Positions 3,397 through 5,403 of a stretch of 5,403 bases of DNA are shown one piece after another. Below the pieces are notes generated by a model. The model worked only from the letters and a program-made list of their open reading frames with translations. It searched no databases and was not told where the DNA came from. This DNA comes from a virus (taxonomy: Duplodnaviria; Heunggongvirae; Uroviricota; Caudoviricetes). The stretch is from IMG/VR virus record IMGVR_UViG_2554235304_000010, positions 1 to 5,403 of that record; one strand, given 5' to 3'. Numbering within the stretch: position 1 is the first letter of the stretch; each line of letters starts with the position of its first letter. A program made the position numbers and the translations under genes.

Positions 3397-3894
3397 ATGA
3401 TGCCATTTGCTCGTTATTTCTGCATTTTCATAAACGTTGGTTTGGGAGAAGGTGCTCCAGCTATTGGCGTTCCGTTCTTCTGGCCGTCCGCCGCAATGCC
3501 AGATACCGTAATCGAAAGCTGGTCCGGCATGGTGTTTTTGAAGTTCAACGGCGCGAAATTCTCTGCCACTGATTACCCTGTGCTGGCAAAAGTGTTTCCT
3601 TCGCTGGTATTACCTGAAGCCCGCGGTGACTTCATTCGTATCTGGGATGATGGGCGAGGGGCGGACAGTGGGCGAGCATTATTAAGCTGGCAGGCAGCAA
3701 CATCTTTATCGCAATTTGGTGGTAATTATCCAGAAGGGTCCGGCCATGCGATTGCTGATTACGATGGAATATCAGCACACGAGCCAGGTTTCTCTCGATT
3801 TCAGTACACCAGTAACTCAGTAGGAGATGGTGTTAATTTTGTTGCTGTCAGACCGCGAAATATTGCATTTAACTTTCTGGTGAGGGCTAAATAA
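3397..3894 (+). CDS. Alternative (currently promoterless) tail-fibre C-terminal receptor-binding segment, lambda Stf / T4 gp12-like tip; real coding begins at the crossover site near 3437 and the upstream ATG at 3397 is flank read-through
   Basis: Translation ...GLGEGAPAIGVPFFWPSAAMPDTV...FLKFNGAKFSATDYPVLAKVFPSLVLPEARGDF...GRALLSWQ...NIAFNFLVRAK has the C-terminal pattern of side tail-fibre tips (lambda Stf ends ...NIAFNYIVRLA, from memory). There is no upstream constant part on this strand; the stop TAA overlaps the following tfa start (TAATG). Confidence 0.7.
   Translation: MMPFARYFCIFINVGLGEGAPAIGVPFFWPSAAMPDTVIESWSGMVFLKFNGAKFSATDYPVLAKVFPSLVLPEARGDFIRIWDDGRGADSGRALLSWQAATSLSQFGGNYPEGSGHAIADYDGISAHEPGFSRFQYTSNSVGDGVNFVAVRPRNIAFNFLVRAK
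3425..3450. other. Left crossover site of a Hin/Gin/Cin/Pin-family DNA-invertase system (hix/gix-like), core dinucleotide TT at 3437-3438
   Basis: TTTTCATAAACG TT GGTTTGGGAGAA: both half-sites resemble the recalled hix/gix half-site consensus TTATCAAAAACC / GGTTTTTGATAA. The inner 14 bp TTGGTTTGGGAGAA (3437-3450) is a perfect inverted repeat of 5334-5347. Confidence 0.6.
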
Positions 3895-4487
3895 TGAAAC
3901 CTGTTTTTGATGAAAATGGACTGGCTACAGTGCCGGGTGATATGCGTTGTTTTTATTATGATGCAGTAACGTCTGAATATACGGGCTGGTCTGATGAATA
4001 TATTAATACTGGCGTAAGTATGCCCGCCTGTTCCACTGGTATTGACCCGGGCGAAAACATTCCGGGGCAAGTGGCAGTATTCACGGGTAAGGGATGGAGC
4101 CATGAAGAGGACCATCGCAATGAGACTGTTTACTCAATCGAAAATGGCGCAGCTGTTACAGTGGATTATATCGGTGCCATCAAAGACGGTTATGTCACGC
4201 TTTCACCGTTAACGCCATACGATAAATGGGATGGTGAGAAATGGGTGACGGATACCGAGGCACAGCATAGCGCCGCAGTAGACGCGGCAGAAGCACAGCG
4301 CCAGTTGCTGATTGATGCTGCAATGGCTTCCATTAGTCTGACTCAGCTGAAATTACAGGCCGGGCGGAAACTGACGCAGGCAGAAACAACCCGGCTTAAC
4401 GCTGTGCTGGATTACATTGACGCGGTGACGGCAACAGATACCAGCACCGCGCCGGATATCAATTGGCCTGCTCCCCCGGAGGCGTAG
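3894..4487 (+). CDS. tfa: Tail-fibre assembly protein (Tfa/gpU-like chaperone) paired with the alternative fibre tip
   Basis: A 197-aa ORF with GAGGG at 3882-3886 and its start overlapping the upstream stop. Translation contains ...GQVAVFTGKGWSHEEDHRNETVYSIENG...YDKWDGEKWVTDTEAQ... and ends ...TATDTSTAPDINWPAPPEA, closely matching the lambda Tfa family (recalled lambda Tfa: ...[25 protein letters not shown]...YQKWNGTAWVKDTEAE...RVDTSTAPDIEWPAVP). Confidence 0.88.
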   Translation: MKPVFDENGLATVPGDMRCFYYDAVTSEYTGWSDEYINTGVSMPACSTGIDPGENIPGQVAVFTGKGWSHEEDHRNETVYSIENGAAVTVDYIGAIKDGYVTLSPLTPYDKWDGEKWVTDTEAQHSAAVDAAEAQRQLLIDAAMASISLTQLKLQAGRKLTQAETTRLNAVLDYIDAVTATDTSTAPDINWPAPPEA

Positions 4488-4875
4488 GCCAGACGGGATT
4501 TGATGTATCAACGCGCATCAGCAAGACCCGGTATTTTTTCCATTCAGATAACGCGGCGGTTTCTTCTGCCGTCGCGATTTCCGCATCAAAAGCATCCTGT
4601 CTCCAGACTATTTCCTTATCAGCCATAGAACGCAATACCGTTCTTTTCTGTTCAGCCTGAATAATCTGTTGTTCAGCGGAGAGTGGCGGGATATCAATCC
4701 ACGCAGGATTACCATTTTTATCAGCCCCCAGCGTTTTGCCTTCTGGCGCTACGCCTGTGTAAATTGCCATTGTTTCATCATCAACATCAGCGCCATTTTC
4801 AGGCCATGAACCGGCGCTGATATATACATCTTTTAGTGCTTCCGGATAGAAAGAGCCTTTATAAAATTTATTCAT
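4459..4875 (-). CDS. tfa: Tail-fibre assembly protein (Tfa/gpU-like chaperone) paired with the currently expressed fibre tip
   Basis: Minus-strand ORF ending ...[40 protein letters not shown], matching the conserved Tfa C-terminus (lambda ...[27 protein letters not shown]...). I place the start at ATG 4875 (MNKFYKGSF...), 2 nt after the upstream fibre stop; the track's 4905 start would overlap the fibre gene by 28 nt and is less likely. Confidence 0.82.
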   Translation of the reverse strand: [138 protein letters not shown]

Positions 4876-4877
4876 TC

Positions 4878-5403
4878 TTAATACCCCAACGCGATAAAAC
4901 AACAATCTTCGGTGCCCTCTCCGGATGGCGACCAGTTCTGAATACTGATATGCGTTCTGCTGGCAATACGCACATTCATCGCGGCATTGTAGCCAGATGT
5001 TCCACGGTTTCCGGTCGCAAACAAACCTGCATAGGGAAAAGCAAATGGTAAGGCATATCCAGCATCAACTCCCTTTTGTGTTGCCACCGTTCCCCACTGC
5101 AACATAAGTTGCACCGGGTTTCCTGTCGTCGCAATGCATGGAATGTAGATGTAGCCATTACCTGACATCATTGACCTGAAGCTGTCTAAATCCAGTAACT
5201 TCGAGGCATTATCTGCTCCAACATCTCGTGTTGCAGCGGTCCCTAACTGGAGCGCATTTCGGAAGGCTGATACATCAGAAATATCAGATCCATTAGCCGA
5301 TTTCTGCATAGCTCCGGAGGCTTTATCTATCGTTTCTCCCAAACCAAGGTTTTCGAGAGCCTTTTGCACCGTGCCGTCCAATTTGATATCGCCAAACGGA
5401 TTC
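4878..5403 (-). CDS. Phage tail-fibre protein, 3' portion (variable receptor-binding tip plus the last codons of the constant part); 5' end lies beyond the right edge
   Basis: The minus-strand frame is open from the window edge (...NPFGDIKLDGTVQKALENLGLGETIDKASG...) to the stop at 4878-4880. The track's M at 5381 is a TTG inside the open frame, not a real start. The crossover site lies in frame within this ORF, and a Tfa gene follows immediately, the standard fibre-chaperone pair. Confidence 0.78.
   Translation of the reverse strand, partial: NPFGDIKLDGTVQKALENLGLGETIDKASGAMQKSANGSDISDVSAFRNALQLGTAATRDVGADNASKLLDLDSFRSMMSGNGYIYIPCIATTGNPVQLMLQWGTVATQKGVDAGYALPFAFPYAGLFATGNRGTSGYNAAMNVRIASRTHISIQNWSPSGEGTEDCCFIALGY
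5334..5359. other. Right crossover site of the invertase system (hix/gix-like), core dinucleotide AA at 5346-5347, embedded in the tail-fibre ORF
   Basis: TTCTCCCAAACC AA GGTTTTCGAGAG: both half-sites resemble the recalled consensus TTATCAAAAACC / GGTTTTTGATAA. 5334-5347 is the exact reverse complement of 3437-3450, and the core dinucleotides are compatible (TT on top strand at left, AA at right). Confidence 0.6.

What the first reader, a model, noticed from the sequence alone, without database searches (positions are those of the whole stretch)
3425..5359. Complete Gin/Hin/Pin/Cin-type invertible tail-fibre switch with in-frame crossover sites
A perfect 14-bp inverted repeat (3437-3450 TTGGTTTGGGAGAA; 5334-5347 TTCTCCCAAACCAA) sits inside 26-bp sites whose half-sites resemble the hix/gix consensus. 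Both repeats encode the same peptide (L/V-G-L-G-E) in the two fibre-tip reading frames, so inversion would swap the expressed tip GLGETIDKASG...CCFIALGY for GLGEGAPAIGVPFFWPS...NIAFNFLVRAK without breaking frame. Each tip is followed by its own Tfa chaperone. This is the architecture of a phage host-range shufflon, here about 1.9 kb.
Basis: partly seen in the sequence, partly recalled or inferred. Interest (0 to 1): 0.8.

Follow-up and report, generated by a model that had tools for sequence, protein, structure and literature searches.

The report
Known invertible phage tail-fibre switch
This is a real flip-flop DNA segment that swaps the tip of a phage tail fibre in a Mu-like prophage of E. 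coli E2348/69; its flipping was published in 2014, and the only new detail is that the prophage has lost its own flipping enzyme and must borrow one from another prophage.

Summary
A perfect 14-bp inverted repeat (3437-3450 / 5334-5347) lies inside two 26-bp sites. Each site is 26/26 identical to a crossover site of the e14 P segment of E. coli K-12. Between the sites are two tail-fibre tips, each followed by its own Tfa chaperone. Both junctions are in frame.

The window is E. coli O127:H6 E2348/69. Both flanks are 100% identical to NC_011601.1, but the segment is inverted relative to that reference. Goldberg et al. 2014 (PMC4272514, Table S1) list exactly this locus (2749478-2751398, "Mu") as phase-variable, at 60 ± 8 % forward in four colonies. 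The switch is therefore real, active and already known.

One correction: the switch is not "complete". The segment lies at the right end of a Mu-like prophage inserted in eutC. Only a frameshifted 30-codon stub of the invertase gene survives (3370→3278), directly abutting the prophage end. No other invertase homologue exists in the prophage.

Two intact Pin/Gin-family invertases sit in P2-like prophages of the same genome, so inversion is most likely catalysed in trans. The stub covers the stretch where the Fis enhancer lies in hin. At least 20 complete E. coli chromosome records, from at least 17 strains, share this invertase-less layout. "Shufflon" is the wrong term.

The parts
3160..3259 (.). 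Right end of the Mu-like transposable prophage (attR-like). It starts TGTAAC... and carries three copies of TTCTGGGC (3177 and 3199 direct, 3227 inverted), which are candidate transposase-binding sites. The eutC coding sequence breaks here.
   Evidence: Homology with the same prophage end at other chromosomal sites starts exactly at 3160. The left end of the prophage carries the same motif three times. The prophage encodes Mu-type transposase A, an AAA ATPase and Mor.
3278..3370 (-). Stub of a Pin/Gin-family serine invertase gene: 30 codons (MFIGYVRASTNDQDTDLQRNALNCAGYELI F*). An extra T in a T-run then shifts the frame into a stop. Residual homology to intact genes fades by about 3260.
   Evidence: Translation. 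Matches phrog_8275 DNA invertase at 6e-17 and Pfam Resolvase at 4e-4, below cut-off. 26/30 aa and 80/90 nt identical to pinE. Alignment to pinE, gin and the ES4 invertase gene.
3286..3349 (.). Presumptive Fis-dependent recombinational enhancer (inferred, not shown). It is bounded by two G-N13-C 15-mers, at coding nt 22-36 (3335-3349) and 71-85 (3286-3300). The nearer one is centred about 95 bp from the centre of the left crossover site.
   Evidence: [quoted passage not shown] The 71-85 15-mer is shared by all six genes compared; the 22-36 15-mer was read by eye from the sequences printed there (5 of 6 genes). Fis binding itself was not tested.
3425..3450 (.). Left 26-bp crossover site: outer half-site 3425-3436, core dinucleotide 3437-3438 (TT, i.e. 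AA on the other strand), inner half-site 3439-3450.
   Evidence: 26/26 identical to the e14 site next to pinE (L004 3606-3631). The inversion breakpoint relative to NC_011601.1 falls within 3437-3450.
3439..3894 (+). Tip A: a fibre C-terminal exon with a weak, sub-threshold tail-collar match (GAPAIGVPFFWPS...FLVRAK). In the window's orientation it is silent, since it has no constant part upstream. It is the expressed tip in the reference genome.
   Evidence: Matches phrog_3100 at 7e-51 and phrog_523 at 4e-44. In NC_011601.1 it is fused to the constant part as the 249-aa WP_001180478.1.
3894..4487 (+). Tail-fibre assembly chaperone for tip A (197 aa). Its start overlaps the tip A stop codon (TAATG).
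   Evidence: Caudo_TAP PF02413 at 2e-26; phrog_105 at 2e-82. 61% identical to e14 TfaE.
4459..4875 (-). Tail-fibre assembly chaperone for tip B (138 aa). It converges on the other chaperone gene and overlaps it by 29 bp.
   Evidence: Caudo_TAP PF02413 at 2e-31; phrog_188 at 5e-43. Annotated as WP_001032314.1.
4878..5347 (-). Tip B: gp53-like fibre C-terminal exon (TIDKASG...CCFIALGY). In the window's orientation it is fused in frame to the constant part, so it is the expressed tip.
   Evidence: Pfam Gp53-like_C at 5e-8; phrog_1396 at 3e-14. The read-through fibre is 253 aa.
5334..5359 (.). Right 26-bp crossover site: inner half-site 5334-5345, core 5346-5347 (AA), outer half-site 5348-5359.
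   Evidence: 26/26 identical to the e14 site inside stfP (L004 1779-1804). Inversion breakpoint.
5348..5403 (-). End of the constant N-terminal part of the fibre gene (...FGDIKLDGTVQKALENLGLGE). The gene starts outside the window, downstream of the baseplate genes.
   Evidence: 100% identical to NC_011601.1, in the gene that follows the YmfQ-family baseplate gene.

Best explanation
Positions 3439-5345 are the invertible host-range segment of a Mu-like prophage inserted in eutC of E. coli O127:H6 E2348/69. It is a Mu G / e14 P-type segment.

A Pin/Gin-family serine invertase cuts at the central AA/TT dinucleotide of two inverted 26-bp sites and rotates the DNA by 180 degrees. The 101-residue constant N-terminal part of the fibre (promoter and start outside the window, on the - strand) is then joined in frame to tip B plus its chaperone (the window's state) or to tip A plus its chaperone (the reference-genome state). 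Virions made from the two states should carry different receptor-binding tips.

The prophage's own invertase gene is reduced to a 30-codon stub, so the enzyme must come in trans. The most likely sources are the intact invertases of the two P2-like prophages in the same chromosome. The stub covers the stretch where the Fis-bound enhancer lies in hin, which would explain efficient flipping without a local enzyme.

Shown: the sites, frames and protein families; both orientations; absence of a local invertase; presence of two intact invertases elsewhere in the genome. Inferred: which enzyme acts, enhancer function and the host-range consequence.
For: Identity and inversion:
- Window 1-3450 and 5334-5403 are 100% identical to NC_011601.1 in one direction. 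Window 3432-5352 matches at 1919/1921 in the other direction. The only two mismatches are the outer-half-site bases 3436 and 5348.
- Goldberg et al. 2014, Table S1, list NC_011601.1 2749478-2751398 ('Mu') as 60 ± 8 % forward in 4 colonies, with IR AAACCTTGGTTTGGGAGAA. These are the coordinates of my match H5.

Sites and cargo:
- Both sites are 26/26 identical to the e14 sites.
- Tail-fibre and Caudo_TAP family matches.
- Both fusion proteins read through.

No local invertase:
- The stub is only 30 codons.
- tblastn of PinE and Gin against the 44.5-kb prophage region finds only the stub.
- No recombinase is annotated among the 64 features.

Trans candidates:
- E2348C_RS09785 (199 aa) and E2348C_RS15490 (192 aa) each lie beside their own invertible fibre segment. 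Those segments have sites with the same or a nearly identical inner half-site (TTCTCCCAAACC or TTCCCCCAAACC) and the same AA core.
- RS09785 is 195/200 identical to the ES4 invertase, which lies next to a 97.8%-identical copy of this very segment.

Precedent for trans action: PinQ, PinR and PinE all invert the e14 P segment, whose repeat contains this 14-bp core. The same paper cites Fin acting on the Hin segment and PinE inverting Mu G (PMC12529663).

Enhancer position.
Against: - No experiment links either P2-like invertase to this segment, and I could not list every invertase in the genome.
- Fis binding to the stub is untested.
- The stub is not more conserved than its flanks across four lineage members: 12/93 variable columns against 6/100 in the prophage end and 1/54 in the spacer. 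There is thus no signal of selection on an enhancer.
- Whether the prophage still produces virions is unknown.
- Work on e14 suggests such tips may instead serve the host, by blocking adsorption of other phages.
Confidence: 0.85

Rival explanations
1. The segment is a fossil. With the invertase lost, the switch is locked, and the different orientations in different assemblies record old events or assembly choices.
For: The local invertase gene is destroyed. All four complete E2348/69 assemblies in RefSeq have the same orientation, opposite to the window.
Against: Goldberg et al. 2014 found both orientations coexisting at about 60:40 in each of four single-colony cultures of E2348/69. The window differs from the reference only by this inversion, with a 100%-identical interior.
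Confidence: 0.03
2. Inversion happens by RecA-dependent homologous recombination between the inverted repeats, not by site-specific recombination.
For: A 19-bp, 95%-matched inverted repeat is present.
Against: The breakpoint lies within a 14-bp core that coincides with 26-bp sites identical to the e14 crossover sites. Goldberg's supplement calculates that reaching 10% of the other form within a colony needs flipping at more than 0.5% of the growth rate. To my knowledge, 14-19 bp is below the minimal efficient substrate for RecA.
Confidence: 0.02
3. The switch now serves the host rather than the phage. As reported for e14, where PinQ-driven inversion makes a chimeric fibre-tip protein that blocks T2 adsorption, one orientation may produce a tip protein that protects the lysogen from other phages.
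For: The crossover sites are identical to those of e14. PMC12529663 reports this function for e14. Dependence on invertases from other prophages fits host-level integration.
Against: Unlike e14, this prophage looks complete, with repressor, transposase A/B, lysis, head, tail and baseplate genes all annotated as intact. The fibre gene sits at the end of the tail operon. The tips are only about 40% identical to the e14 tips. The same phage lineage sits at at least 5 different chromosomal sites, so it has been transposing.
Confidence: 0.1

Closest known systems
P segment of the e14 cryptic prophage of E. coli K-12 (pinE, stfP/tfaP/tfaE/stfE)
   Same: Both 26-bp crossover sites are 26/26 identical. 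The 55-bp spacing between the site and the invertase start codon is the same. The layout is the same: constant part - site - tip - tfa - convergent tfa - tip - site - invertase, with a 29-bp overlap of the two tfa genes. The invertase stub is 26/30 aa and 80/90 nt identical to pinE. The e14 segment is also flipped by invertases of other prophages.
   Different: The cargo differs: tip A is 40% identical to StfE, tfaA 61% to TfaE, the constant part 51% to StfP, and tip B has no e14 match. The carrier is a Mu-like transposable prophage, whereas e14 is described as a lambdoid prophage element (Mehta et al. 2004 title, cited). pinE is intact in e14 but truncated to 30 codons here.
G segment of bacteriophage Mu (gin, S/U/U'/S')
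   Same: The position in the genome is the same: last tail gene, just inside the right end of a transposable phage. The logic is the same: a constant N-terminal fibre part, alternative C-terminal tips with chaperones, and a serine invertase acting at 26-bp sites.
   Different: Mu has gin, com and mom between the G segment and attR. Here only a gin-like stub remains, and about 20 bp beyond it lies the roughly 100-bp prophage end region. The gix site (TTATCCAAAACCTCGGTTTACAGGAA) has a different core (TC/GA) and different half-sites. The segment is about 1.9 kb against about 3 kb, and the proteins are only weakly related.
Invertible fibre segments of P2-like prophages (E. coli ES4; E2348/69 loci at 1.89 and 2.98 Mb)
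   Same: ES4 carries the same segment at 97.8% identity with an intact adjacent invertase. The E2348/69 P2-like loci have sites with the same or a nearly identical inner half-site (TTCTCCCAAACC or TTCCCCCAAACC) and the same AA core, and they are phase-variable in the same cultures.
   Different: Those loci have their own invertase. One of them has three sites and four states.

Membership tests
Din-family (Gin/Hin/Pin/Cin) serine-invertase DNA inversion system | Two inverted 26-bp crossover sites, each made of two 12-bp half-sites around a 2-bp core, with matching cores | tested here: met
   Sites at 3425-3450 and 5334-5359, with core AA/TT at 3437-3438 and 5346-5347. Both are 26/26 identical to the e14 sites. 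0 of 200 shuffles gave any match to the shared 14-mer.
Din-family (Gin/Hin/Pin/Cin) serine-invertase DNA inversion system | A functional serine invertase gene (resolvase catalytic domain plus C-terminal HTH) next to the segment | tested here: not met
   Only a 30-codon frameshifted stub remains. There is no other homologue in the 44.5-kb prophage region. Two intact homologues exist elsewhere in the same chromosome, so the requirement can be met in trans.
Din-family (Gin/Hin/Pin/Cin) serine-invertase DNA inversion system | A cis-acting Fis-dependent enhancer, normally within the 5' coding region of the invertase gene, about 100 bp from one site | tested here: inconclusive
   The first 93 bp of the invertase coding region is retained, 68-160 bp from the site centre, and is 80/90 nt identical to pinE. 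Two candidate G-N13-C 15-mers are present (the distal one shared by all six genes). Fis binding cannot be tested with these tools, and no excess conservation was seen.
Din-family (Gin/Hin/Pin/Cin) serine-invertase DNA inversion system | The segment is actually found in both orientations, with the breakpoint at the sites | tested here: met
   The window and NC_011601.1 differ only by an inversion with its breakpoint inside the 14-bp core. Published result: 60 ± 8 % forward in four colonies.
Phage host-range switch of the Mu G / P1 C / e14 P type | Alternative C-terminal tail-fibre exons, each with its own Tfa chaperone, joined in frame to one constant N-terminal part | tested here: met
   Family matches. 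Read-through fusion proteins of 249 and 253 aa sharing residues 1-101.
Phage host-range switch of the Mu G / P1 C / e14 P type | The two orientations give virions with different host range | not testable with these tools
   This needs prophage induction and plating on indicator strains from orientation-locked lysogens.
Shufflon (as I recall, not checked here: multiple-inversion system of IncI plasmids run by the tyrosine recombinase Rci) | Several segments bounded by more than two repeats, giving many permutations | tested here: not met
   Only two copies of the site exist in the window, so there is one segment and two states. The recombinase stub is of the serine-invertase family.

The most novel reading that the evidence does not exclude
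A whole lineage of Mu-like transposable prophages in E. coli has lost gin (and everything between it and attR). The lineage is present in at least 20 complete chromosome records, from at least 17 strains, at five or more insertion sites. It keeps a working invertible fibre segment plus the enhancer-bearing 5' stub of the invertase gene. These phages can therefore switch host range only in polylysogens, by borrowing the invertase of an unrelated co-resident prophage (P2-like or e14-like). This would be a standing dependence of one phage on another's recombinase.
Probability: 0.55. Interest if true: 0.35.

Novelty: already known. Interest (0 to 1): 0.18.

Why it matters
The switch itself adds nothing new. 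It is a textbook mechanism, and this exact locus was shown to flip in 2014.

It does explain why assemblies of the same strain differ at this locus. It also explains why annotation pipelines mislabel the silent tip.

The loss of the local invertase, with flipping still close to equilibrium, is a small but clean natural example of cross-prophage dependence. It is relevant to predicting phase variation from genome sequence: looking for an adjacent recombinase would miss this locus.

Tried and rejected
- Hidden invertase in the prophage: tblastn of PinE and Gin against the 44.5-kb region found only the stub.
- Isolated phage with the same end: no record in the phage collection matches the first 100 bases of the query, the Mu-like end, at megablast sensitivity. 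The earliest phage match starts at query base 101, inside the invertase-stub region.
- Selection on the stub or enhancer: substitutions among four lineage members are not depleted in the stub, at 12/93 columns against 6/100 and 1/54 in the flanks. This gives no support for the enhancer idea, though four sequences give little power.
- Full inventory of invertases in E2348/69: not possible with these tools, which list one row per record and cap region fetches. I located two only through the coordinates in Goldberg's Table S1.
- Literature search on 'E2348 69' + 'Mu-like' + 'prophage' returned nothing. The relevant paper turned up with other terms.
- Exact target-site duplication of the prophage: ambiguous (AGTG or AGTGT), because the insertion lies in a GTGTGT run.
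- Rejected explanations: RecA-mediated inversion, a locked fossil, and the 'shufflon' label (see rival explanations and membership test).
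Full report
**1. What is in the window**

ORF listing and comparison with annotated genomes place the window in E. coli O127:H6 E2348/69.
- Positions 1-62 are the end of an ISEc13 copy inserted in eutA.
- eutA (from 67) and eutB are intact.
- eutC breaks at about 3160, where a Mu-like prophage begins.

The prophage spans roughly NC_011601.1 2715945-2751660. It encodes a repressor, a Mu-type transposase, an AAA ATPase, Mor, lysis, head, sheath, tape-measure and baseplate proteins. 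It ends with the fibre gene and the segment under study.

**2. Check of the observation**

It is unique in the window, and no match appeared in 200 shuffles. It extends to 19 bp with one mismatch.

The 26-bp sites built around it are each 26/26 identical to one of the two sites that bound the e14 P segment of K-12. The sites are TTCTCCCAAACC-AA-CGTTTATGAAAA at 3450-3425 and TTCTCCCAAACC-AA-GGTTTTCGAGAG at 5334-5359. The Mu gix site is related but differs in its core and half-sites.

Both tips match phage tail-fibre families, and both following ORFs are Caudo_TAP chaperones. Joining the constant part to either tip gives open fibre proteins of 249 and 253 aa that share residues 1-101.

**3. Direct evidence that the segment flips**

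Against NC_011601.1:
- Window 1-3450 and 5334-5403 align at 100% in one direction.
- Window 3432-5352 aligns at 1919/1921 in the opposite direction.
- The two mismatches are the outer-half-site bases 3436 and 5348.

The window is therefore the reference sequence with exactly this segment inverted, and the crossover lies inside the 14-bp core. All four complete E2348/69 assemblies in RefSeq have the other orientation.

Goldberg et al. 2014 (Genome Med 6:112, PMC4272514) sequenced single-colony cultures of this strain. Their Table S1 lists NC_011601.1 2749478-2751398, 'Mu', at 60 ± 8 % forward in four colonies, with repeat AAACCTTGGTTTGGGAGAA. Those coordinates are identical to my best E2348/69 match. 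The switch is thus real, active and already published.

**4.

Between the left site and the prophage end (3160-3424) the - strand encodes MFIGYVRASTNDQDTDLQRNALNCAGYELIF, followed by a stop. This is the N-terminus of a Pin/Gin-type invertase, including the conserved serine in YVRASTNDQ; I recall this as the catalytic residue but did not check it. It matches phrog_8275 at 6e-17, and is 26/30 aa and 80/90 nt identical to pinE.

An extra T in a T-run shifts the frame, and homology to intact genes fades by about 3260. The next 100 bp are the transposable-phage end. They carry three TTCTGGGC motifs (two direct, one inverted), and three direct copies occur at the left end. To my recollection this mirrors the arrangement of the Mu transposase sites.

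Mu itself has gin, com and mom in this position. tblastn of PinE and Gin against the whole 44.5-kb region finds only the stub. No recombinase is annotated in the prophage.

**5. Where the enzyme probably comes from**

Goldberg's table lists two more invertible loci in P2-like prophages of the same genome. Each has a full-length 'recombinase family protein' next to its segment: E2348C_RS09785 (199 aa) and E2348C_RS15490 (192 aa). Both align along their whole length with PinE and Gin. Their own sites have the inner half-site TTC(T/C)CCCAAACC and the AA core.

RS09785 is 195/200 identical to the invertase of strain ES4. In ES4 that enzyme lies next to a 97.8%-identical copy of the very segment studied here, inside a P2-like prophage. 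This makes RS09785 the leading candidate.

Trans action has clear precedent. PinQ, PinR and PinE all invert the e14 P segment, whose repeat contains this 14-bp core. The same paper cites Fin acting on the Hin segment and PinE inverting Mu G (PMC12529663).

**6. The enhancer**

Invertases of this family need a Fis-bound enhancer in cis. [quoted passage not shown]

The stub retains coding nt 1-93, that is 68-160 bp from the centre of the left site. Two G-N13-C 15-mers lie at coding nt 22-36 and 71-85. The second is shared by all six genes compared. The first I read by eye from the sequences printed; it is kept in five of the six. I therefore infer that the enhancer survives at about 3286-3349.

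This is an inference only. Among four lineage members the stub is not more conserved than its flanks.

**7. A lineage, not an accident**

The same right end and the same 93-bp stub, with the same frameshift, occur in at least 20 complete E. coli chromosome records, from at least 17 strains. They sit at different insertion sites: eutC, beside melA, mhpT, beside pphA, and an ABC-transporter gene. Different tips are joined at the site.

The invertase-less layout is thus a stable property of a Mu-like phage lineage that has kept transposing. No isolated phage in the phage collection shares this end at megablast sensitivity.

**8. Comparison with known systems and verdict**

In mechanism and membership this is a Din-family inversion system of the Mu G / e14 P type.
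- Features met: crossover sites, cargo, in-frame fusion and actual inversion.
- Not met in cis: the adjacent invertase.
- Only inferred: the enhancer.

It is not a shufflon. The finding is ordinary and this exact locus is already described, so I rate the novelty 'already known' and score the interest low. The one observation I did not find in the papers I read is the dependence of a gin-less Mu-like lineage on invertases from other prophages.

Noticed in passing
window 1-62 (and eutA from 67): The window opens with the 3' end of an IS4-family ISEc13 copy inserted in eutA. The transposase stop codon is at 53-55, the terminal repeat ends at 62, and there is a perfect 13-bp hairpin at 34-46/52-64. 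Together with the prophage in eutC, the ethanolamine-utilisation operon of this strain is interrupted twice.
   Followed up: partly
window 3160-3259; L006 7946-8090: The Mu-like prophage ends carry a repeated TTCTGGGC motif. Two direct copies and one inverted copy lie within 75 bp of the right end, and three direct copies lie at the left end. This resembles the layout of Mu transposase-binding sites. The target duplication is AGTG or AGTGT, ambiguous because the insertion lies in a GTGTGT run.
   Followed up: partly
L001 8274-8735 and 10175-10396; L002 5172-5633: RefSeq annotation calls the silent, promoterless tail-fibre tip 'integrase, incomplete' in strains tcmA_3 and ES4. This appears to be a propagated misannotation of fibre-tip fragments left by inversion.
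   Followed up: no
window 4459-4487: The two convergent chaperone genes overlap by 29 bp at their 3' ends, so the C-termini of both proteins (...INWPAPPEA and ...[11 protein letters not shown]) are encoded on opposite strands of the same DNA. The same 29-bp overlap occurs in e14 (L004 2518-2546).
   Followed up: no
L009, L010 and hits H61-H80: At least 20 complete E. coli chromosome records (at least 17 strains) hold the same Mu-like right end and invertase stub at different chromosomal sites. Their tip and chaperone cassettes differ, which implies cassette exchange within the lineage. In OkiPb01676 the stub carries 12 substitutions relative to the window, possibly from recombination with an intact invertase gene.
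   Followed up: partly
L007 3684-5709 (NC_011601.1 about 1.89 Mb): The P2-like prophage that encodes the best candidate trans-acting invertase has three crossover sites and three alternative tips, giving four states. Goldberg et al. 2014 already described this locus as shufflon-like.
   Followed up: no
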